A stretch of 64,000 nt of DNA from an uncultured Verrucomicrobiae bacterium (GTDB lineage Bacteria > Verrucomicrobiota > Verrucomicrobiia > Chthoniobacterales > Chthoniobacteraceae). The translations under genes and the position numbers were made by a program. Below are positions 43,926 to 54,589 of the stretch, one piece after another; the stretch's first letter is position 1, and every line of letters starts with the position of its first letter. A model generated the notes under the pieces. It was given only the letters and a program-made list of their open reading frames with translations, searched no databases and was not told the origin of the DNA. The stretch covers positions 1,952,001 to 2,016,000 of the forward strand of contig CAWIKF010000002.1 in assembly GCA_963836755.1 (NCBI GenBank). Direction: 5' to 3'.

Positions 43926-43944
43926 TGCGCGATACAGTTCGAAC
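43926..43944 (-). repeat. att-like direct repeat of the tRNA-Val 3' end
   Basis: 19 identities with a 2-nt deletion relative to 49032-49052. Confidence 0.8.
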
Positions 43945-44240: not shown

Positions 44241-44513
44241 ATGAAATTCCATGTTCAAGTTCGCGCGGACGTGCCGAACACGTTTGCCAAGAAAAACGGG
44301 GACAAGGTGCAAGAGCGATTGCTCACCTGCATCGACCGCACGCCTGATGCAATGGTGGCCGATACCTTCGAGGTCCTGGCCGCGAATCTCCCGTTCAGCG
44401 AAGCGGGGTCACTCGTCGGCAAAACCGCCGAGCTGCACGTCACGCAGATGACGCCGCGCAATGTCGGTGTCCGGCTTCACGCGAAGGTGTTCGCTAATCC
44501 CGCGAGCAAGTAA
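44241..44513 (+). CDS. Small beta-rich protein, putative ssDNA-binding protein (phage/plasmid type)
   Basis: 90 aa; A-rich leader; TFAKKNGD hairpin-like segment; precedes a Rep-like fragment. Confidence 0.5.
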   Translation: MKFHVQVRADVPNTFAKKNGDKVQERLLTCIDRTPDAMVADTFEVLAANLPFSEAGSLVGKTAELHVTQMTPRNVGVRLHAKVFANPASK

Positions 44514-44694: not shown

Positions 44695-45846
44695 TTACGC
44701 TAACGAAACGGTAACTCTTTTACTGCCCTGGCTGGCCGACGCATAGATGCCTTCCAGGATGCGGATGTCGCGCAGACCCATCTCGCCGGGACAGGCAAAG
44801 GGCTGCTTGGTCCGAATCGCCTCGGCGAAATGATCGTGGAGCACGGCGAGTTGCATGGTGCCGGCCAGATCGGGACTGGTGCCGTCCGGTAGTGTCAGCT
44901 TCATTGGAGCAGGTTTCGCATGGGCGCTCTGCGAGAAGGATGTGCAGGAAAAAGTTCCGTGTTCCGCATGCACTGCGAATTCTCCTTTGCCACCAGCGTA
45001 GCTAGCGCGGCCTTCATGAGTCACGCCGCCCGGGTATTCAAAGTTTACCTTCATCGTTTCCTCGATGTCTGCCGAGTATCCCGGATCAGTAGAGCTAGGA
45101 AAGGCTGTGACTGCGACGGGTGTCGAACCAGTGATATAACAACCGGCCTGGATGCTATAGACGCCGGTATCAAACATAGCCCCGCCTCCTGCCAGTTTCT
45201 TATCCCACAGCCATGGCTTACCATTCCCGCGATGCCATGAGAACTCCGTCGAGAGGGACCTGACAGCGCCATAGACCTTGTCGTGGGATAGTCGCATCAT
45301 CTCCAAATGGTGCGGCTCGAAGTGGAGGCGGTAATCCACCGCAAGGTATCGGTCGGCCTTTCGCGCCGCATCGATCATGCTCTGGCATTCCTTGCTGCTG
45401 ATCGCCATCGGCTTCTCACACATGACATGCTTGCCCGCGTTTAGTGCGGCAATGGTGTGCGCTGCGTGAAGACCATTCGGAGTTACCACGTGGACGATAT
45501 CGATGTCCTTGTTGTCCGCCATGCGCGGCATCTGATCGTAGGTAAAGATGTTCGCCTCAGGGAAGCCATACTGCGCGGCGTAGCGGCGTCCTTTGCCCGC
45601 GGGATCGCCGGTGACAACTCCGGCAAAGTAGACATTCTGTGACAAAGCGAGTTCCGGTGCGATGCTGGCCCCGCTGAATCCGCCGAGACCTACTAACACC
45701 ACACCTAGCTTCCCTTTGCGTCGCTGCTCCGCAAAGGGTTCCGGTGCCGAAAAAGTTCTTCGTGGAAATCCTAAAAGTGTCGTTGCCGATAAAGTCAGCG
45801 CACCTTTGATGAAAGTGCGCCGGGTAGAAGAGGGGAGTGGTTTCAT
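44695..45846 (-). CDS. Tat-exported Gfo/Idh/MocA oxidoreductase (glucose-fructose oxidoreductase-like)
   Basis: TRRTFIK Tat motif; VGLG; AGKHVMCEKP. Confidence 0.9.
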   Translation of the reverse strand: MKPLPSSTRRTFIKGALTLSATTLLGFPRRTFSAPEPFAEQRRKGKLGVVLVGLGGFSGASIAPELALSQNVYFAGVVTGDPAGKGRRYAAQYGFPEANIFTYDQMPRMADNKDIDIVHVVTPNGLHAAHTIAALNAGKHVMCEKPMAISSKECQSMIDAARKADRYLAVDYRLHFEPHHLEMMRLSHDKVYGAVRSLSTEFSWHRGNGKPWLWDKKLAGGGAMFDTGVYSIQAGCYITGSTPVAVTAFPSSTDPGYSADIEETMKVNFEYPGGVTHEGRASYAGGKGEFAVHAEHGTFSCTSFSQSAHAKPAPMKLTLPDGTSPDLAGTMQLAVLHDHFAEAIRTKQPFACPGEMGLRDIRILEGIYASASQGSKRVTVSLA

Positions 45847-45921
45847 AGATGGTAAGGCCGCAAGTGAAGTATTCCCTATATCAAGCCGATACATCTCAAC
45901 GATCTTTTTCGAAAGCTCCTT

Positions 45922-47019
45922 CTACTTCGTCTCCGCCTTGTAGCCGTGCCACAGCCATTCCAAGGCTTCCGGCAAAGTCTCACGCTTCACACCTTGATCC
46001 ACATGCCCGGCGTTTTGCGCGAAGACAAATTGGTAATGGTAACCTTTCGCCGCCAGCACCCGCGCCATGTCTTCATTGGCGCCGACCCAGTCATGCATCC
46101 CATCGCGCATGATGTTTGGATTCAGTAAATCGCGGTCGCCCACTTCCATCCAGATGCGCAGCGGCTTTGCGGGGCTGTTAGGAATCAAGTGCTCGTGAAA
46201 TTCCCACGCGCCGTGCGGTGTCTCCGCGCTCGGCGGCCATTGCTGGTTCACGAAAGTGCCGGAGTAAGTCAGCACGCGGCGAAAAAGTTCCGGATGATAC
46301 CACGCCATGATCAGCGCGCACGAGCCGCCGGAGCTGCCGCCCATCGTCGCGCGCCCTTCCGGGTCTTTGGTCAGCTTCACGCCGCAATTCTTCTCCACCA
46401 ACGGCAGCACCTCACTCTCCACGAACTCCGCATACTTGCCCGACATCGTGTCGTATTCCAATCCGCGCTCGCTGCCCTGCGCGTCGCCGCTGCCATTACC
46501 GATGGAGATCGCAATCATCACCGGCACGCGCTTCTCACCAATCAAGTGATCTAGCGCCGCGAATGAAAGACGGTCCGGCCCATCCGCCCCCACGATGAAA
46601 GGCGCGGCCGTGCCGGCGACATATTGACTGGGAATGTAAACCGCCACGCGGCGCGTGTAAGGAGCCGGATGGCTCGTCGTCACCACCAGCTTCGCCGGAT
46701 CGGCGGGGTCGGGCGCGCCAAACGTCTTAGGATCGCGCGCGATGCCGGGAAAAATTTTGCTGTCCGCCGAGCTCATCGTGAACTCCACGACCTTTCCCTG
46801 CGTAATGGCGGTTCCCGTCAATTCCGGCGCTGGCGGATGCGTCGGGCCGAGGATGAAATTCCCATCCACATCGGCAGGCGGCACCGTGCCATCCGGCAGC
46901 ACCTTCGCAGGCACGCTCCCCGGCGCGTGCGGATCGCGCGTGGGCGCGGCGGGACGCGCAGTCGTCGTAATGGCGAGACTGGCGATGCCAGCGAGAATCA
47001 AAAATGGACGCAGATGCAT
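45922..47019 (-). CDS. Secreted alpha/beta-hydrolase (Fes/enterochelin esterase-like)
   Basis: Signal peptide; ERGLEYD; GGSSGG nucleophile elbow. Confidence 0.88.
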   Translation of the reverse strand: MHLRPFLILAGIASLAITTTARPAAPTRDPHAPGSVPAKVLPDGTVPPADVDGNFILGPTHPPAPELTGTAITQGKVVEFTMSSADSKIFPGIARDPKTFGAPDPADPAKLVVTTSHPAPYTRRVAVYIPSQYVAGTAAPFIVGADGPDRLSFAALDHLIGEKRVPVMIAISIGNGSGDAQGSERGLEYDTMSGKYAEFVESEVLPLVEKNCGVKLTKDPEGRATMGGSSGGSCALIMAWYHPELFRRVLTYSGTFVNQQWPPSAETPHGAWEFHEHLIPNSPAKPLRIWMEVGDRDLLNPNIMRDGMHDWVGANEDMARVLAAKGYHYQFVFAQNAGHVDQGVKRETLPEALEWLWHGYKAETK

Positions 47020-47113
47020 CGGGCGCGGCACCTGCCGGCGGGTGTAAAGGGGACGGTGGTCTGTCGCAGGTGCCCTGACTGCGGAGCCTGCTAGCTGCAT
47101 CGCATGGTTAGGT
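47020..47113 (-). repeat. Truncated integron attC site
   Basis: ACCTAAC CATGC GATGCAGC (R''/L'') plus inner GGCACCTGC/GCAGGTGCC stem; L'/R' half missing. Confidence 0.65.
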
Positions 47114-47129
47114 GCATTGGTGGAATTGC

Positions 47130-47339
47130 TCACTCGGCGAAACAGTCGCTGTCGATCTTCTTGATCTCGTATGTGGATACAATGGAGACTCCCAAACTAA
47201 AGTCGATCATCATCTCCGCAAGCTGAGTGCCGTCGATGAGAACAATCTTGCTTCCGATAGTAGAAACGTAGTCGCGGGCGTTGTCCGTGAAGGTGGACGT
47301 AGTAATGTAAATCCCTTTGTTGGCTCGTTGGCCTTGCAC
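47130..47339 (-). pseudogene. mrr: C-terminal fragment of an Mrr restriction endonuclease (gene cassette)
   Basis: QGQRANKGIYITTSTFT...IVLIDGTQLAEMMIDFSLGV...KKIDSDCF; the catalytic N-terminal part is absent. Confidence 0.85.
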
Positions 47340-47348
47340 GGCTTATGC

Positions 47349-47472
47349 GCCTAACGACCCCAAGCTCAGCGACTGCGGAGGCTGGCGCGCTGGCTGCATG
47401 GGGGCGGAAAGGCGGAGGCTGCAAGCAGCCAGCGTGACAGCCGGAGCAGTTCGCTGCAGCGCATGGTTAGGC
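47349..47472 (-). repeat. Integron attC site (124 bp)
   Basis: GCCTAAC...GCTGCAGC...GCTGAGC...GTTAGGC imperfect palindrome; HNH stop codon lies inside R''. Confidence 0.9.
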
Positions 47473-48324
47473 CATTTGCTCGAATTCATGGAATCGTCGG
47501 TGCCATTGCAGGTATGCACGTGTGGGCTGTGGTAAGTCGGACAGCTTGGCCGCGGATGGGATGCCGATTGCGTTGCGGTCAGCGAGGGAAAAGTGCGGCG
47601 AAAAGATCATCTCGCCGATGTCCGAGAACGAAATAAGTCCGTGCTCGAACGCAAGGTCGATGTGTCCCGCGAGGATTATGCCATTGTTGGCGTCAAGGCG
47701 TTCGGCGGTGCTAGACTGTGACACACGCTTGATGTGGGCCGCACGCAGAAGGCGTCTATCTCGGCAGCCAGTGACGACGCAAGCAGGGCCACACCGATCC
47801 TCGACCCGTTTTCGCCAGTGTTGTTGCCAGAAACGACGCGAGGAAACCGTTCCAAACGTGGTAATGCTATCGTCTGCTTTCTGAATCTCTTCCGGCGTGA
47901 GTTCTTGCCATGAACGATTTGAATCGGTCTCGCTATCCTCCCAAGGCACCAATGTCCCATCCTGTGCTTTGCGGAACAAACATCCAATGACGTCTGCTAG
48001 GAGGGCGTAATGTTCTTTGTTTGGCTGTTTGACGACGCCATTCTTTTCATCAACGAGAATTGGGAAGCGATTCCGTAAGCCGGTTTTCCTGTCTTCGGTC
48101 CATTCTAGTATTCCGGGAGCCGCCTCAGACGGATCGAACTCTGAAGCCAAGCTCCGCCTAGCAAGTGAAGCAGCGTATGTGAGAGATTCGCGAAGGTATT
48201 TGTCGATTCGCGATCGACCATCGCCCTGAAAAGCCCGGAAATGTCGCTGACACTTGCCAACGGGATCGGTCAAATACGCACCTCGGGCTCCCAACTCTTC
48301 GCATACGTCGTGATACGTGCTCAT
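47467..48324 (-). CDS. HNH endonuclease (putative restriction-type), integron cassette
   Basis: CVVTG...LLRAAHIK...DANNGIIL..HIDLAFEHGLISF...YLQWHR; flanked by attC sites. Confidence 0.88.
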   Translation of the reverse strand: MSTYHDVCEELGARGAYLTDPVGKCQRHFRAFQGDGRSRIDKYLRESLTYAASLARRSLASEFDPSEAAPGILEWTEDRKTGLRNRFPILVDEKNGVVKQPNKEHYALLADVIGCLFRKAQDGTLVPWEDSETDSNRSWQELTPEEIQKADDSITTFGTVSSRRFWQQHWRKRVEDRCGPACVVTGCRDRRLLRAAHIKRVSQSSTAERLDANNGIILAGHIDLAFEHGLISFSDIGEMIFSPHFSLADRNAIGIPSAAKLSDLPQPTRAYLQWHRRFHEFEQMA

Positions 48325-48333
48325 CGGTTATTG

Positions 48334-48435
48334 GCCTAACGAATCCAAGCTCAGCGACGGAGGCTGGCGACGCAAGACGAAACCACGAAAGAGACCCCAC
48401 CGCCAGCCTCTGTTCGCTGGAGCGCGTGGTTAGGT
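48334..48435 (-). repeat. Integron attC site (102 bp)
   Basis: ACCTAAC CACGC GCTCCAGC...GAGGCTGGCG/CGCCAGCCTC stem...GCTGAGC TTGGATTC GTTAGGC. Confidence 0.9.
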
Positions 48436-48522
48436 GCCGTGGGCTTCGATTGGAGCGTGAAGATAGAACTCATTAAATCGTTCAATTTGGCTTGGACGCT
48501 ATCAAACCCAGATTCTCTCGTT

Positions 48523-48822
48523 GACCCGACTCCGCTCGCGTCGCGCTACCGCTTCCGCATGAAGCTGGTGGGTGTGCAAAGCGAATACCAGCTCGCGGCG
48601 AGTTCTCCCGCGCCGATGGCGGCGATCGCCGGCGTGCTGCCGGGGCAGACGGTGGAGATCATCGTGCAGGCGGTGAATGGTTCGCTGCAAAGCGTGCCGA
48701 GCGCGAGTGTGACTTTCACCGTGCTTTTGCCGGTGAAGGCGGCGGAAGCGCCGGCTGCAAAAGTGGCGCTGGAGCTGCCTGCGCTGGCGACGAATGGGAA
48801 CGGGAAGCACAGCAGGGTTTAG
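48523..48822 (+). pseudogene. C-terminal fragment of a fibronectin-III-like protein
   Basis: PLASRYRFR...VLPGQTVEIIVQAVNG...PSASVTFTV; no natural start; abrupt GC change near 48522. Confidence 0.55.
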
Positions 48823-48859
48823 GCTTCGACATTAGGATTCACGCAGTTTTTTCCAATGG

Positions 48860-48897
48860 AAGGGGCGGCCGCGCATGATGGCGCTGCCGCCCCTTTT
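48860..48897. terminator. Hairpin terminator
   Basis: AAGGGGCGGC...GCCGCCCCTTTT between the FN3 fragment and tRNA-Val. Confidence 0.65.
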
Positions 48898-49028
48898 CCT
48901 TGTCCAGACGTGTCCCTCCAGCTCACGGAAATTGCACGGATGGGATCCATGGATCCGAAGGGGATCGCCGATCAAGCTTTGACTTGGAAAAACTATTTGC
49001 GCGAGGGGCGCGGCGTGGGGCGGGGGGA

Positions 49029-49103
49029 TGGTGCGCGATACAGGGTTCGAACCTGTGACCCCCTCCGTGTCAGGGAGGTGCTCTACCACTGAGCTAACCG
49101 CGC
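49029..49103 (-). tRNA. tRNA-Val (GAC)
   Basis: GCGCGGT...CCTCC CT GAC AC GGAGG...TTCGAAC...ATCGCGCACCA. Confidence 0.96.
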
Positions 49104-49222
49104 GTTTGTCCGGCCATTCCATCCGCGACTGGGCGAATGGAGCAGCGGAAAATAGTGGGTGCGCCGACGGCTTGCAAGCCTGCTTTTCACACAACGTGAA
49201 TGGCGGATGCGGGCGAAATGGC

Positions 49223-50002
49223 TTACGACTTTGCTTCGCCGTGGCGCTTTAGAAATTCATCCGCGAGATCGCGGTAAGCAGTCGCGCCGAGGCCGTTAGG
49301 ATCGTATTCCATGATGGTTTTGCCAAAGCTCGGCGCTTCGCCGAGGCGCACCGTGCGCGGGATCATCGTCTGATAAACGGTTTCGCCAAAATGCTTGCGC
49401 ACTTCGGCGACGACTTGCTGGCTGAGGTTTGTGCGGCTGTCGTGCATGGTCATGACGATGCCGTGAAGAGTGAGGGCGGAATTCGCGCCGGACGCTCGAA
49501 TTTGCTCGATGACTTGCACGATTTTTGAAAGGCCCTCGAGCGCGAAGTATTCGCACTGGAGCGGGACGAGGAGCTCGTCGGCGGCGGCGAGCGCATTGGT
49601 CATGAGGATGCCAAGCGACGGCGGGCAATCGAATAGCACATAGTCAAACGCCGCATCCTCGCGCAGCGGCCAGAGGACTTCGCGCAGCCGCGTGAGGTGA
49701 TGGTCGCCGCGCGCGACTTCGATTTCTGCTCCGGCGAGGTCGAGATCGGCGGGGACGATGGAAAGCGTCTCGAAGCGCGTGGGGAGAATTTGTTTCGCGA
49801 CGGGGCCCTGGTCGACGAGCGGCTTGTAAATGCTGTGCCCGTCCACGCCCTCGACGCCGAGCGCGCTGGTGGCGTTGCCCTGCGGGTCGAGGTCGATGAG
49901 GAGGACGAATTGCCCCTTGAGCGCGAGGCAGGCGGCGAGGTTGACGGCGGTCGTGGTCTTGCCGACGCCTCCTTTTTGATTGGCCACGGCGATGGTTTTC
50001 AT
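49223..50002 (-). CDS. parA: ParA/Soj family ATPase
   Basis: NQKGGVGKTT, DLDPQGNAT, DCPPSLG, LQCEYFALEG. Confidence 0.93.
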   Translation of the reverse strand: MKTIAVANQKGGVGKTTTAVNLAACLALKGQFVLLIDLDPQGNATSALGVEGVDGHSIYKPLVDQGPVAKQILPTRFETLSIVPADLDLAGAEIEVARGDHHLTRLREVLWPLREDAAFDYVLFDCPPSLGILMTNALAAADELLVPLQCEYFALEGLSKIVQVIEQIRASGANSALTLHGIVMTMHDSRTNLSQQVVAEVRKHFGETVYQTMIPRTVRLGEAPSFGKTIMEYDPNGLGATAYRDLADEFLKRHGEAKS

Positions 50003-50048
50003 TTCTGGAAAGTCTGCGAAACTAGTCGTTCGAAAAATATTGTCCAAC

Positions 50049-52920
50049 ATGAGTGGAGTCGAGCTGAGCGAAAAATTGCTGATGGATGCGGGCGGCTGGC
50101 AGGCGATGAAGCTGGCGCGCGCCCTCTGCGACGCCGGCCGCGTGCTGAGCGCGCATTATGCGCCGCCGGTATTGAAGGGCGTGGTGCAGGACGCGGGCGC
50201 GGAGTTTCGCTCGGGGCTCAAAATCGTGACGCGGACGAATGTGGAAAATATCTGCGGCTGCCGCGCGTCGCGCGAATGGGGGACGATCTGCGCGCATTCG
50301 CTGGCGGTGGGATTGAAGGTGTTGCGGCCAAAGTTGGAGAGAGCGGGGGAGCCTACGGTCTCCGCGCCGAAAGCTGCGGCGGTGATGAGCGGGCCGTTTT
50401 TTTCAACGACGGAAGCCGGCGAGCCGATCGCGCTGCACGTGATTTTGTCGCCGAATTTCCAGGCGGCATGGGAGAAGGATCAGGTGATGGTCGGCGCGGA
50501 AGTCGAGCAGGACGGCGGGCGGATTTTGATTCACGCGCTCGATGCGAAGAAAACTTTTCGCGCGGCGCCGGAAGATTTGCGGGTGATCGAAAAACTGCGC
50601 GAACTCAATGGCGGCGCGCTTTCCGGCATGATGATTCTGCCGCGCGAAAAAGTTCTCGAGCTGCTCGAAAGTCTTGCGCGGGCACCCACGCGTGACTTTT
50701 GGAAAAACTGCGCCAGCCGATGTGGAAGCGCTGCTGAAATCGCTGCGGCCAATCAAAGAGGACCCGCGAATTCCAGACCCCCATGTGGACGCGGAACCGG
50801 CTGCGCCGGAATTTTCGCTTACGCTGGAAGGTTCGCTCAATCATCTGACGGGGCGGCTGCAGGCGACTTACGGCCAGCGGGTCGTCACCGTCGGTCTCAC
50901 GCCGGATGCTGACACTTTCACATTTCCCGATCCCAAAAATGCATCGCGCCGCCTTTCGCGAAATCTCGCTGCCGAGCACGCGGCATTGGAGCGGCTCACT
51001 CGCCACGGCTTCGCAGGCCCGGATACGACCGGGAATTTTACGCTCAAGCGCGAACATTCGATCCTGACATTTCTCGCACAGGAGCTGCCGCAATTAGAGC
51101 GGGAGTGGGCAGTTACGATCGGCGCGCGTTTTACAAACGTGACGCGCGACATCGAGCGCATCACGCCGCGCTTCGACATTCAGCGGTCGGGCCAGGATTG
51201 GTTCGAAATGAGCGTGCATTTGGAAGCGCCGGGCGGGCAAACCTTTTCTGCCGCTGACATCCAGCGCCTACTGCAATCGGGGCAAAATCATGTTCGCCTA
51301 AAAAATAATCGGCTGGCCGTTTTTGATGCGAAGATGCTCGATGAATTCCAAAACGTCCTCGTCGATTGCGCGCCGGAACAGCGGCAGCCCGGCCTCTATC
51401 GCGTGAACCGAATCCATGCCGGCTACATCGACGCGGTGATTGGCGATACGCGCGTCACCGGTGCGGCCGAGTGGAAGGAATGGGCGGCGACGCAACGGCA
51501 GATGAAGGCGCCGCAGCCGATCCCGCTCGGCCAGCTCGACGAGGTGCTGCGCCCTTATCAGAAGCAGGGCGTTTACTGGATGAACTTTCTCGCCGAGAAT
51601 GGATCGGGCGGAATCCTCGCCGACGAAATGGGGCTTGGGAAAACTTTGCAAGCGCTTGCTTTTTTGACGACGCGTGGCCGACCGTCGCTGATCGTCTGCC
51701 CATCTTCGCTCGTTTACAATTGGCAGCGAGAGGCGGAACGTTTTACGCCGGAGCTGCGAACTTTGGCGATCGCCGGGGCAAGTCGCAGCGCTCTCTACGG
51801 AAAGATCAACGAGTCAGATCTCGTGATCACAAGCTACCCGCTGCTTCGCCGAGATTCGGACCGCTACAGAACCTTTGAATTTGCGGCCGTTATTTTGGAC
51901 GAAGCACAGCACATCAAAAATCCTGAGACGCAAAACGCGCAAGCTGCCACGAGCCTGCGCGCAGAAACTCGCTTCGTGCTCACGGGCACGCCGATGGAGA
52001 ATTCGGTCCGTGATTTGTGGTCGATCATGCATTTTGTGAGGCCGGGCTATCTCGGCTCGCATGAAGATTTTCGCGAGCGATATGAGAAACCGATTTCCGG
52101 AAGGGATCGAGAAGCCCAAAACCGGCTGGCGAAACGGATCAAGCCATTTTTGTTGCGCAGATTGAAGAAAATGGTTGCCACGGAATTGCCGGACAAGATT
52201 GAGCAAGTTACTTATTGCGAGCTGACTAACGCTCAGTTGGATATCTACAACCAGATCCTGAAGGAGAGCCGTGCCCAAATCGAAGTCGCGAGCGGAGAGA
52301 AGAATGAAGGCCGACTGAAAATGGTGATGCTGACGGCATTATTGCGCCTCAGGCAGGCCTGCTGCGATCTTCGGCTCTTAAAGCTGGCAACAGATCCCGC
52401 CAACTACTCGGCGAAGCTCGAGTTACTCGACGAACTGCTGCGTGAAGCGATCGACGGCGGACATCGGGTCCTGATTTTTAGCCAGTTCGTTACCATGCTC
52501 CAGCTTCTCCGCAAACATCTTGAGAAGAGTGACACTTCATATTGTTACCTCGACGGCTCAACGAAAAACCGCGGTGAAGAGGTGGACCGATTCCAGAACA
52601 ATCCTGAAATTCCCGTTTTTCTGATCAGCCTCAAAGCCGGCGGCGTCGGCCTCAACCTTACGGGCGCCGACACGGTGATTCATTTCGATCCATGGTGGAA
52701 TCCCGCGGTGGAATCGCAGGCTACCGATCGCGCGCACCGACTCGGCCAAAAAAACATCGTGACGTCATTTAAGCTCATCACGAAAGGCACCGTCGAAGAA
52801 AAGATTCTCAATCTGCAGCAAAAGAAGCGAGACATCATAAACTCGACTATGGGCGATGAACTGGAGATGTCGGCGCTATCACCGGCGGAAATTGCATCAC
52901 TACTCGACGTAGAAGATTGA
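50049..52920 (+). pseudogene. SWIM zinc finger + SNF2 helicase split by a +1 frameshift near 50673-50679
   Basis: CGC...ICAH SWIM in frame 1; LADEMGLGKT, DEAQ, TGTP, QATDRAHRLGQ in frame 2. Confidence 0.8.
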
Positions 52921-53486
52921 TCCGCGGAGCGGGCACAGTCATTGAAAGATCGTCATCCAAACGGCACCAACACCCCACTAGTTTATATTACATATAGTCA
53001 AACGATTTATACGAGTTATAGGTAGATAAAGGCTATAAAAAACGTTCGCAAGGTGCTGGAGATAAGAGAGATAAACGACGCGAAAAAAAATCGAAGTTAT
53101 AGGAAAATAAGGCCGGATTAGAAGCCCTTTTAGAAGCACTTTTCGCGCCTCGATTTTCCACGCCGACTTGCTCACAAACCGGTAGCTCTGGCTTGGCGCC
53201 AGCGCGCGAGCTGATCCGCTTCGCGGCTCGCGCTGCCGCTACCTTCGCTCCGCTCGCAGACTCGCTCCGACGATTTGAGAACAAGCCTTCCAACGTGAGA
53301 AAGAAAGGCTCTGGCACGATCGAAAAGAAGAGTGGGAGAGAAGTCCGCGCAGCTGCGCGCGAGAGAGTCAGACCGAGACCCACGGCAGAGCAGGCGAGAG
53401 AGAAAGAGCCAGGACGAAAGATGACCGTCGCAACGAGAGCCAGGACGAAAGAGAAGACGGTCGCGCGGCACGAAAGAAAAGAATGA

Positions 53487-53528
53487 CCCCAGCCCGCCGA
53501 CGGCCTACGGCAACGGGACGGGCTGGGG
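53487..53528. terminator. Strong hairpin inside the element
   Basis: CCCCAGCCCG...CGGGCTGGGG; A-rich on the left (T tract on the minus strand). Confidence 0.55.
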
Positions 53529-53575
53529 AACCTTTAGAACACATTTCACGCACGACGACATGTCACACACCATGC

Positions 53576-53716
53576 TCATGCAGTCCCCGTGTTCTCGGTG
53601 ATTGGACGACCACCCTTGGCACCGTTCGAACGGGCAGAGAGACGCTTTTTGGCTGACTTGGCCTTGCCGCCACGCTTACCGATTTGCCTCAGGTATTCGC
53701 GTGTTGCGGGGTGCAT
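53576..53716 (-). CDS. 46-aa basic KGG-type peptide (absent from ORF track)
   Basis: MHPATREYLRQIGKRGGKAKSAKKRLSARSNGAKGGRPITENTGTA. Confidence 0.6.
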   Translation of the reverse strand: MHPATREYLRQIGKRGGKAKSAKKRLSARSNGAKGGRPITENTGTA

Positions 53717-54026
53717 AAAAGGCGAGTCTGGCCGCTTCGGTTTTCCAACCGACTCAGCTTAAATAGTTTACAAAATGCGAATGCGACGATTTTGGCCAAT
53801 TTTGGGATTTTGCTAAAAGTTCGGTGCAGTTGTTCACATATAGACAAGGAACAGCGTGCGCTATCGCGCTCGCTGGAAACCGCGTAAAAACGCGGGCCGG
53901 AACCCTCTGCGCCGGCCAAAGCTGGCTCCGCGCCGCTCGCCGCTAGCGCGGACTTCGGGACGACGATCGCCAGCGCGAAGCGGCTCCGCAGGGCTCCAAG
54001 GCCACTAGAACGCGGTTTTGCGGAAC

Positions 54027-54356
54027 TCATGACGCTTCGCCGTGACCTTCGAGCCACAGGCGGATAATCTGCCGCAGAAGCACGGACCGAGTCGGCGGGC
54101 AGAACTGGCGACGGCGGAAATCATCCAGCGCACCGGCCTCGGCCTCAGTCAGCGCAGAGGAGACAATGACCGAGACCTTTTCGAGCTGGGGATTGGCCTT
54201 GGGGCCGCGCTTTTGATCAGGCGGATAGCTGAGAACGGGACTGGAGGTGCCGTTAACGTGCTTGCGAGCGGCGTTTTTGGCACGGATATCGGCGCGGATT
54301 TCCTCAAAGAGCTTGCGCTCCGCAGGAGTATGGAGATTGACGCCACGCCGTCTCAT
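54027..54356 (-). CDS. Ribbon-helix-helix (CopG-like) DNA-binding protein
   Basis: KRGPK followed by VSVIVSSALTEAEAGALDDFRR...PTRSVLLRQIIRLWLE; start 54356 or 54392. Confidence 0.6.
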   Translation of the reverse strand: MRRRGVNLHTPAERKLFEEIRADIRAKNAARKHVNGTSSPVLSYPPDQKRGPKANPQLEKVSVIVSSALTEAEAGALDDFRRRQFCPPTRSVLLRQIIRLWLEGHGEAS

Positions 54357-54589
54357 TTGAACAAGACGTTGGTGCCGTATACAAACCGGCAAAGAAAAAC
54401 TTTGCTGATTTGCAGAATGTAGACAATTGGCCCGTGGTTGCTGGCTTGGCGGGCGAGTTGGTGGACGGACATGCCACCAATCTGGATTTTATATTACATA
54501 TATTGTATGATGTTATTGTTATGTGCTAATGGCACCGCGGCTTACCGTTTTGTGAATAACTAGTGAATGAAACCCTGTGCAGGTTCGCG

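What the first reader, a model, noticed from the sequence alone, without database searches (positions are those of the whole stretch)
47020..48522. Integrase-less integron cassette array (CALIN) carrying nuclease/defence cargo
Seen: on the minus strand there are two complete attC-like palindromes (48334-48435, 47349-47472). Each has RYYYAAC...GTTRRRY ends, an 8-nt L'' versus 7-nt L' (one extrahelical base) and a long inner stem. A third site is cut off at ~47020. Each ORF starts 9 nt after a GTTAGGC core, and the HNH stop codon lies within GCCTAAC, which is the classic promoterless cassette layout. 48436-48522 looks like the 3' tail of a further, destroyed cassette. No intI is present in the window. 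Established: integron cassettes frequently carry anti-phage genes. Inference: a defence-cassette array was captured into a tRNA island in a verrucomicrobial-type genome.
Basis: partly seen in the sequence, partly recalled or inferred. Interest (0 to 1): 0.82.

Follow-up and report, generated by a model that had tools for sequence, protein, structure and literature searches.

The report
Eroded integron outpost in tRNA island
This is a real but worn-down row of swappable gene cassettes, with one intact DNA-cutting gene that is predicted to defend against phages, in a bacterium whose only cassette-swapping enzyme lies 1.2 million bases away; it is likely the leftover of one of several scattered cassette docks that tend to sit beside an uncharacterised repeat-plus-gene module.

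Summary
Observation largely confirmed. Two complete attC sites (48334-48435, 47349-47472) score 78 and 100 bits on a model built without them; the third is only the left 94 nt (47113-47020). The HNH cassette is intact, with a VcaM4I-type active site. The second 'ORF' is only the last ~70 codons of a ~305-aa Mrr gene, so its 9-nt start spacing is coincidence. The genome has one intI 1.23 Mb away, at least 45 related attC sites and 10 attI-like heads; the scan reported this distributed integron before from other windows. A degenerate tRNA-Val 3' copy at 43926-43944 supports a 5.1-kb decayed tRNA island. New here: the array abuts the 3' third of a helical+FN3 gene. Intact copies of that gene, with a 41-nt repeat, head other arrays here and in relatives (6 of 39 loci, background 1.2%), and 8 of 22 integron units have a 21/41-nt array just upstream (0.8 expected). 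Best reading: a deletion remnant of an FN3-repeat-attI-cassette unit; only the HNH cassette could still be excised in trans. A CALIN, with an undescribed companion module.

The parts
49029..49103 (-). tRNA-Val(GAC); its 3' end (49052-49032) is the likely attL of a decayed island
48860..48898 (+). GC-rich hairpin with T-run after the FN3 gene stop; likely terminator, similar hairpins follow the sister copies
   Evidence: sequence. Not listed by the pattern scan
48523..48822 (+). 3' third (about aa 238-335 of 348) of a helical + fibronectin-type-III gene, antisense to the cassettes; 5' part, 41-nt repeat and attI head are missing
   Evidence: (E 3e-36)
48436..48522 (-). 87-nt tail of a destroyed cassette; no relative found in 100 family genomes
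48334..48435 (-). attC1, complete, 102 nt
   Evidence: 78 bits
47467..48324 (-). intact 285-aa cassette gene: unnamed N-terminal domain + VcaM4I/TagI-type HNH nuclease (H197, N214, D223, E227); stop inside R'' of attC2
47349..47472 (-). attC2, complete, 124 nt
   Evidence: 100 bits
47130..47339 (-). last ~70 codons of an Mrr-type restriction nuclease cassette (5'-deleted pseudogene)
   Evidence: (PF04471 positions 75-115)
47020..47113 (-). attC3, left 94 nt only (R'', L'', part of the stem); cut at the base before the esterase ATG
45922..47019 (-). esterase (PF00756); not a cassette (no attC behind it); its own upstream region is replaced by the attC3 half
44695..45894 (-). Gfo/Idh/MocA-type oxidoreductase inside the island bounds
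44241..44513 (+). 90-aa ORF of a verrucomicrobial family, weakly like gene-5 ssDNA-binding proteins; likely relic of the small element that made the island
43926..43944 (-). degenerate direct copy of the tRNA-Val 3' end (19 of 21 nt, 2-nt gap): attR-like

Best explanation
The stretch is a genuine integrase-less cassette cluster that is likely the deletion remnant of an 'FN3 gene - tandem repeat - attI - cassettes' unit, one of several satellite arrays that the genome's single distant integrase would serve in trans. Shown: two complete attC, one half attC, an intact HNH gene, an mrr fragment, an FN3-gene fragment in antisense at the head, one intact intI 1.23 Mb away, and sister arrays with the full head. 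Inferred steps: (1) cassettes were stacked at an attI head beside the FN3-repeat module; (2) a deletion joined FN3 codon ~238 to the tail of the first remaining cassette (48522/48523), removing repeat, attI and promoter; (3) a second deletion removed most of mrr; (4) a third break cut attC3 at the esterase ATG (47020/47019). The array can no longer gain cassettes at attI. Only the HNH cassette, between two complete attC, would still be excisable by IntI made elsewhere and could be switched on by re-insertion at another attI; in place it is likely silent or weakly read through. The HNH protein is predicted to be a sensor-plus-HNH restriction nuclease. All of it lies within a decayed 5.1-kb tRNA-Val island.
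For: attC tests. One intI over the TIGR02249 cut-off, 474 bits, catalytic motifs present, with its own attI and cassettes. At least 45 sister attC in 22 units, 10 with attI-like heads; type-b heads lie right beside intI in G002 and G015. The FN3 gene stands antisense at the head of arrays at C2:763k (with intI), 1470k (repeat + attI, no intI), 1340k (internally deleted, 97% like the 1470k copy) and here: 4 of 6 profile hits in the genome. Relatives show the series: FN3-intI-attI (G028), FN3-truncated intI (G001:C344), FN3 fragment-attI (G001:C340), FN3 straight onto a cassette tail and attC (L140). 6 of 39 FN3 loci with 1.5 kb or more upstream have this layout, against 1 of 39, 1 of 49 and 0 of 49 for the other three layouts and 26 of 2094 ORFs in this genome. 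Contigs of run X1 bridge both outer junctions; a contig of X2 carries an unbroken FN3 allele past 48523, and X2 and X3 contigs stop matching at 47019. A full-length Mrr cassette between attC sites exists in G096. HNH domain matches VcaM4I at Z 18.9, rmsd 1.7 over 117 residues, with equivalents of its four named residues. Lagging-template orientation goes with small arrays: all five C2 arrays with 3 or more complete attC face the other way, as in PMC5371416 (passages).
Against: No undeleted parent of this very locus was found, so the head is inferred from sister loci. 33 of 39 FN3 loci show no integron head in the 3 kb upstream, so the gene could be a chance neighbour in a variable region. No contig covers the mrr junction, and X1 may be the source sample. 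No excised or rearranged form was seen (contigs only). Trans activity, expression and anti-phage activity are untested. The two full-length HNH relatives found in 400 phylum genomes are not in cassettes. The array is only ~5 kb from the dif-like site, so the replication-strand call is fragile, and at cluster level the orientation count is 8 versus 6.
Confidence: 0.68

Rival explanations
1. The cassettes were inserted by IntI at a secondary (attG-like) site inside the island and never had an attI head; the FN3 fragment is an unrelated neighbour later clipped by deletion.
For: Secondary-site insertion is a recognised origin of CALINs (PMC4889954 section 20). The junction reads GTT|GAC on the + strand, close to a core site. 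Most FN3 relatives have no integron beside them.
Against: The join is two bases off the G|TT crossover, on the strand opposite to the cassettes, and falls inside a cassette, not at its start. The antisense FN3-at-head layout recurs three more times in this genome and in relatives.
Confidence: 0.14
2. A tRNA-Val-integrating element picked up the cassette block elsewhere and brought it in as defence cargo; the block never exchanged cassettes with this genome's integron.
For: attR-like repeat bounding a 5.1-kb island; ORF90 has a relative beside a tRNA end in G006; the FN3 fragment is only ~71% identical to the genome's other copies; 0 of 19 tRNA-Val(GAC) loci in relatives hold cassettes, so the content is lineage-specific.
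Against: attC2 is 90% identical to a site in the C2:1427k array; no integrase or transfer gene is left; the same attC family is common in relatives, so similarity cannot date the event. Two of three cassettes are destroyed, which argues against selection for a defence block. Compatible with the best explanation as to the head; it differs only in where the unit was assembled.
Confidence: 0.15
3. The palindromes are REP-like dispersed repeats unrelated to cassettes.
For: They are a sequence-conserved family scattered over about 20 places.
Against: Canonical attC boxes with compensatory changes (7 of 20 pairs, 97% of cells paired), strand-specific score, same family directly behind intI-attI, position at ORF ends and one orientation per cluster.
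Confidence: 0.02

Closest known systems
CALIN (Cury et al. 2016, PMC4889954; section 20 read whole, other passages)
   Same: Two or more attC, no intI within 4-10 kb, small, in a genome that encodes IntI elsewhere (half of CALINs are), no intI pseudogene nearby.
   Different: Origin here points to a duplicated attI-bearing head tied to a repeat + FN3 module, a route not among those listed there (integrase loss, rearrangement, IS, secondary sites). I did not screen for IS beyond reading the flanks.
Sedentary chromosomal integrons as stores of anti-phage cassettes (Darracq et al., 10.1101/2024.07.02.601686; passages)
   Same: Promoterless nuclease cassettes, including Mrr_cat domains, silent until moved to attI.
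   Different: Here the store is split over many small arrays, this one has no attI or Pc, and only one cassette is intact.
Xanthomonas CALINs away from the ilvD integron (10.1101/2025.06.18.660453; passages)
   Same: One intI locus plus distant CALINs, said to be mobilisable in trans.
   Different: Those sit at conserved loci; this one is lineage-specific (0 of 19 relatives at tRNA-Val GAC), and the passages read mention no attI copies or companion gene.
VcaM4I (EVE-HNH) and TagI modification-dependent restriction nucleases (PMC7897488; passages; PDB 6YEX, 6GHS)
   Same: HNH domain fold (Z 18.9 and 11.1) and active-site residues.
   Different: The match covers residues 159-283 only; the N-terminal ~140 aa is a separate conserved family with no clear structural match in a whole-model search.

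Membership tests
attC site | R''(RYYYAAC)/R'(GTTRRRY) and L''/L' boxes with an extrahelical base | tested here: met
   attC1 and attC2; extrahelical base is G in attC1 and C in attC2 on the bottom strand; attC3 has R''/L'' only
attC site | Bottom strand folds into the recombinogenic hairpin | tested here: met
   (R-box pair probabilities mostly 0.7-0.99); not met for attC3
attC site | Hit to IntegronFinder's own covariance model | not testable with these tools
   Model not available; a custom model was used; Rfam gave only the tRNA and one weak chance hit
attC site | Recombined by IntI | not testable with these tools
   Needs an excision assay; no joint seen in contigs
CALIN | At least two attC in a cluster | tested here: met
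CALIN | No intI nearby | tested here: met
   Only intI at C2:765053-766066, 1.23 Mb away; no fragment near
Complete integron | intI and attI beside the array | tested here: not met
   No attI-like hit in the window
tRNA-integrated island | Direct repeat of the tRNA 3' end at the far boundary | tested here: met
   43926-43944, degenerate
tRNA-integrated island | Own integrase | tested here: not met
   No PF00589 hit in the window
tRNA-integrated island | Empty site in a relative | tested here: inconclusive
   Gene order around tRNA-Val(GAC) is not conserved in the 19 relatives fetched nor behind parA in the two same-genus genomes
Modification-dependent HNH restriction nuclease (VcaM4I/TagI type) | HNH domain with intact catalytic residues | tested here: met
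   H197/N214/D223/E227 align with H224/N241/D250/D254
Modification-dependent HNH restriction nuclease (VcaM4I/TagI type) | PUA-superfamily modification sensor domain | tested here: inconclusive
   N-terminal domain gave no clear match (best Z 3.1) and was not folded alone
Modification-dependent HNH restriction nuclease (VcaM4I/TagI type) | Cuts modified DNA / restricts phage | not testable with these tools
   Needs an assay
Mrr type IV restriction nuclease | Full-length gene with complete Mrr_cat domain | tested here: not met
   Only profile positions 75-115 of 115 remain

The most novel reading that the evidence does not exclude
The 21/41-nt repeat + helical-FN3 module, present in dozens of copies in these genomes, is the vehicle that spreads integron docking sites: heads are copied with breakpoints inside the repeat, seeding attI satellites that a single IntI serves in trans, so Chthoniobacterales run a genome-wide distributed integron by riding on a transposase-free repeat element. 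This window is a late decay stage of that cycle.
Probability: 0.25. Interest if true: 0.75.

Novelty: new variant of a known kind. Interest (0 to 1): 0.42.

Why it matters
How CALINs arise is open: most are not next to intI pseudogenes (PMC4889954). This genome shows a graded series from complete integron to attI-only head to headless remnant, tied to an uncharacterised repeat + FN3 module. If the tie is causal it names a route for CALIN birth and a role for that module, and both can be tested by comparative genomics and one recombination assay. The HNH cassette adds a candidate anti-phage nuclease with an unnamed sensor domain. The window element alone is an ordinary small, mostly dead CALIN.

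Tried and rejected
Rfam scan: only the tRNA and one chance-level hit. Sigma-70 promoter scan of 46800-49300: 0 found, 0.7 expected; uninformative for this phylum. Sequencing runs: no RNA holder listed, so nothing on expression; contigs show no excision joint, which does not show absence. Search for the tail cassette: 0 of 100 family genomes. The search for related loci with the single FN3 protein: 0 of 118 candidates; the alignment worked. Viral-contig search with the HNH alignment could not run; the cluster look-up could not be made, so the context of most HNH relatives is unknown. The N-terminal match of alignment A2 to VcaM4I was rejected: it came from an EVE-type row in the alignment and vanished with the single sequence. 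IntI crossover at the FN3 junction: considered and rejected (register and strand wrong). tRNA-Val(GAC) as a general cassette hot spot: 0 of 19 relatives (20 fetched, one was Val-CAC). The attI-pattern hit at C2:1775978 was dropped as a decayed attC. Paper search returned almost only unrelated papers. Searches listed no paper linking FN3 genes or tandem repeats with integron heads; only listings were seen, supplements were not read, and the library lacks most subscription papers.

Full report
1. Observation. The window is G000:C2:1952001-2016000 of a 3.18-Mb, 4-contig genome; related records are titled Chthoniobacterales/Chthoniobacteraceae. On the minus strand, attC1 (48435-48334) and attC2 (47472-47349) have R'', a 5-nt spacer, an 8-nt L'', a 7-nt L', an 8-nt spacer and R' GTTAGGC. 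The bottom strands fold at z -3.08 and -4.66 (0 of 200 shuffles as good), the top strands at -1.96 and -2.42. I aligned 20 complete sites from outside the window (10 own genome, 10 relatives; 2 near-duplicates of 22 left out). 97% of cells pair and 7 of 20 pairs show compensatory change, with slid controls at 19-38%. The model built from them scores attC2 100.1 bits, attC1 78 bits, the third site 20.2 bits and everything else in the window 17.5 or less. This is a custom model, not IntegronFinder's. The third site is the left 94 nt of a ~126-nt site type seen whole in G013 (87% over 93 nt) and ends at 47020, the base before the esterase ATG.

2. Cargo. The 285-aa gene is intact: PF13391, PADLOC HNH/REase models, 6 close relatives at 47-86% identity among 10 hits and about 20 near-full-length relatives among the best 150 representatives. 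Residues 159-283 match VcaM4I (E 1.6e-13; Z 18.9, rmsd 1.7 over 117) and TagI (Z 11.1). H197, N214, D223 and E227 align with the residues named in PMC7897488 (passages; conservation). The N-terminal ~140 aa is well predicted (mean pLDDT 90.9) but has no clear match. A restriction role is a prediction. The two full-length relatives in 400 phylum genomes are not cassettes. The second gene is the end of mrr: profile positions 75-115 of PF04471; 16 of 16 relatives have open frames of 306 aa or more, and the GTG stands where they have an internal codon. One of the 16 (G096) is a whole Mrr cassette between attC sites. The 87-nt tail has no relative in 100 genomes.

3. The genome. There is one intI (474 bits, cut-off 265), 1.23 Mb away, with its own attI and cassettes and no other intI fragment. 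The model finds 45 sites (150 of 2597 candidates scored, so a minimum). Half-site profiles give 22 units, 10 starting with an attI-like head of three sequence types: 8 clear, 2 decayed. Type a is the head beside this intI; type b lies beside intI in G002 and G015; type c was not seen beside an intI. The scan reported this distributed layout earlier from other windows; I derived it independently before that look-up.

4. The FN3 neighbour. 48523-48822 (+) is the 3' third of a ~345-aa gene with long helices and a C-terminal fibronectin-III fold, with no Pfam or NCBIfam family and 145 relatives. In this genome it stands antisense at the head of arrays at C2:763k (gene, 41-nt x 7.7 repeat, intI, attI), 1470k (gene, 41-nt x 4.9, attI) and 1340k (internally deleted, 97% identical to the 1470k copy, different attI type), and here: 4 of 6 profile hits; the two others have no attC near. 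Heads at C1:703k, C2:1267k, 1340k and 1471k share sequence that reaches into the last repeat units. Relatives show the same series: complete in G028; intI cut after about residue 51 in G001:C344; FN3 fragment then attI in G001:C340; FN3 straight onto a cassette tail and attC in L140. Of 65 fetched loci, 64 had a locatable gene and 39 had 1.5 kb or more upstream; 6 of 39 have same-strand intI or antisense attI/attC within 3 kb, against 1 of 39, 1 of 49 and 0 of 49 for the other layouts and 26 of 2094 ORFs in this genome. Three more fit by eye but not by the rule (L114, L139, L172). Against: 33 of 39 do not fit, some loci are duplicates (L116/L153, L127/L157), kin are not independent, and my profiles see one attC family only. 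More widely, the genome has 59 arrays of period 21/41/42; 8 of 22 integron units have one within 2 kb on the 5' side, 2 on the 3' side, random mean 0.81, 0 of 5000 placements reach 8. That null is uniform and ignores shared hot spots; 8 versus 2 is the stricter comparison and is modest.

5. Junctions. Contigs of run X1 bridge 48522/48523 (48422-48837, 1 difference) and 47019/47020 (46549-47114, none); X1 may be the source sample, so this rules out misassembly only. A contig of X2 is identical over 48523-48560 and continues upstream as unbroken FN3 frame; X2 and X3 contigs match the esterase to 47019 and stop. No contig covers the mrr junction. None of the three breaks is at a G|TT crossover, so they are likely ordinary deletions.

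6. Island. A copy of the tRNA-Val 3' end (19 of 21 nt) at 43944-43926, same orientation, is the only non-tRNA match in the genome at 3 edits or fewer. Such downstream matches occur for 5 of 44 tRNAs against 1 of 44 on the opposite strand. The 5.1 kb between holds ORF90, an oxidoreductase, the esterase, the cassettes and the FN3 fragment, and no integrase. ORF90 scores 0.94 to a gene-5-like cluster with recognition below the reliable level and has one relative in 60 genomes, beside a tRNA end. 0 of 19 tRNA-Val(GAC) loci in relatives carry attC or FN3.

7. Orientation. dnaA is at C2:347k, dif-like sites at window ~52980 and ~54490 (consensus recalled; noted before as e1-9166627), and cumulative GC skew peaks at C2:1972k. 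On that basis 31 of 37 complete C2 sites, and all five arrays with 3 or more, have the bottom strand on the leading template; the six clusters facing the other way, this one included, keep 2 or fewer. This fits PMC5371416 (passages), but the window lies at the terminus and clusters split 8 to 6.

8. Mechanism. Shown: anatomy, junctions, distant intI, sister heads. Inferred: the unit once had repeat, attI and promoter; three deletions removed them, most of mrr and half of attC3; only the HNH cassette can still be excised, and it would be expressed after re-insertion at another attI, as shown for Vibrio cassettes (10.1101/2024.07.02.601686, passages). Confidence 0.68; secondary-site insertion 0.14; import as island cargo 0.15; REP-like repeats 0.02.

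9. Literature and novelty. Read: PMC4889954 (section 20 whole, passages), PMC5371416, PMC7897488, 10.1101/2024.07.02.601686, 10.1101/2024.07.02.601719 (no HNH or Mrr mention), 10.1101/2025.06.18.660453 and 10.1101/2022.02.06.479319 (passages only). CALINs in IntI-bearing genomes and nuclease cassettes are known. Searches listed nothing on a repeat + FN3 module at integron heads, and two look-ups in the scan's notes gave no note joining the two. Verdict: a real, mostly dead CALIN in a decayed tRNA island; member of a known kind, with an undescribed companion module that may explain how such arrays spread. Interest 0.42.

Noticed in passing
window 47133-45922 (-): The mrr remnant's stop overlaps a GTG (GTGA at 47133-47130) that opens a 403-aa frame running through the attC3 half into the esterase; could be translational coupling or chance.
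   Followed up: no
window 52980-54513: Two dif-like sites around a 1.5-kb element, 5 kb from the cassettes (noted before as e1-9166627); used only for orientation.
   Followed up: partly
window 49223-50050: parA lies near the terminus without parB next to it; in the two same-genus genomes SNF2-parA is conserved but tRNA-Val does not follow.
   Followed up: partly
G000:C1:273689-274749 and C2:1698730-1699845: Second layout: 21-nt array, then an FN3-like or helical gene, then a type-c attI on the same strand behind the gene.
   Followed up: partly
G000:C2:1340292-1340995 versus 1470103-1471660: Near-identical FN3-repeat units (97% over 148 nt) followed by different attI types (c and b), so module and head can be reassorted.
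   Followed up: partly
G000:C2:1315842-1316131: Lone copy of the 41-nt repeat of the intI locus (about 88% identical) with no FN3 gene or attI, 5.8 kb from a decayed attC cluster.
   Followed up: no
L080 (G001:C344) 2183-2620: intI is cut after about residue 51 by an insert that looks like a GIY-YIG nuclease gene (label from recall).
   Followed up: no
G000:C2 tRNA-Gln(CTG) 22959, tRNA-Leu(TAG) 419631, tRNA-Gly(CCC) 696190: Degenerate 3' copies 2.6-8.7 kb downstream: further small tRNA islands.
   Followed up: no
G015: Five intI copies in one family member, four on one contig, against one here.
   Followed up: no
L205 (G006:C1:685040-688282): ORF90 relative beside a tRNA 3' end, a 171-aa Rep-like ORF (label from recall) and an HNH-like ORF: a small integrated element.
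   Followed up: partly
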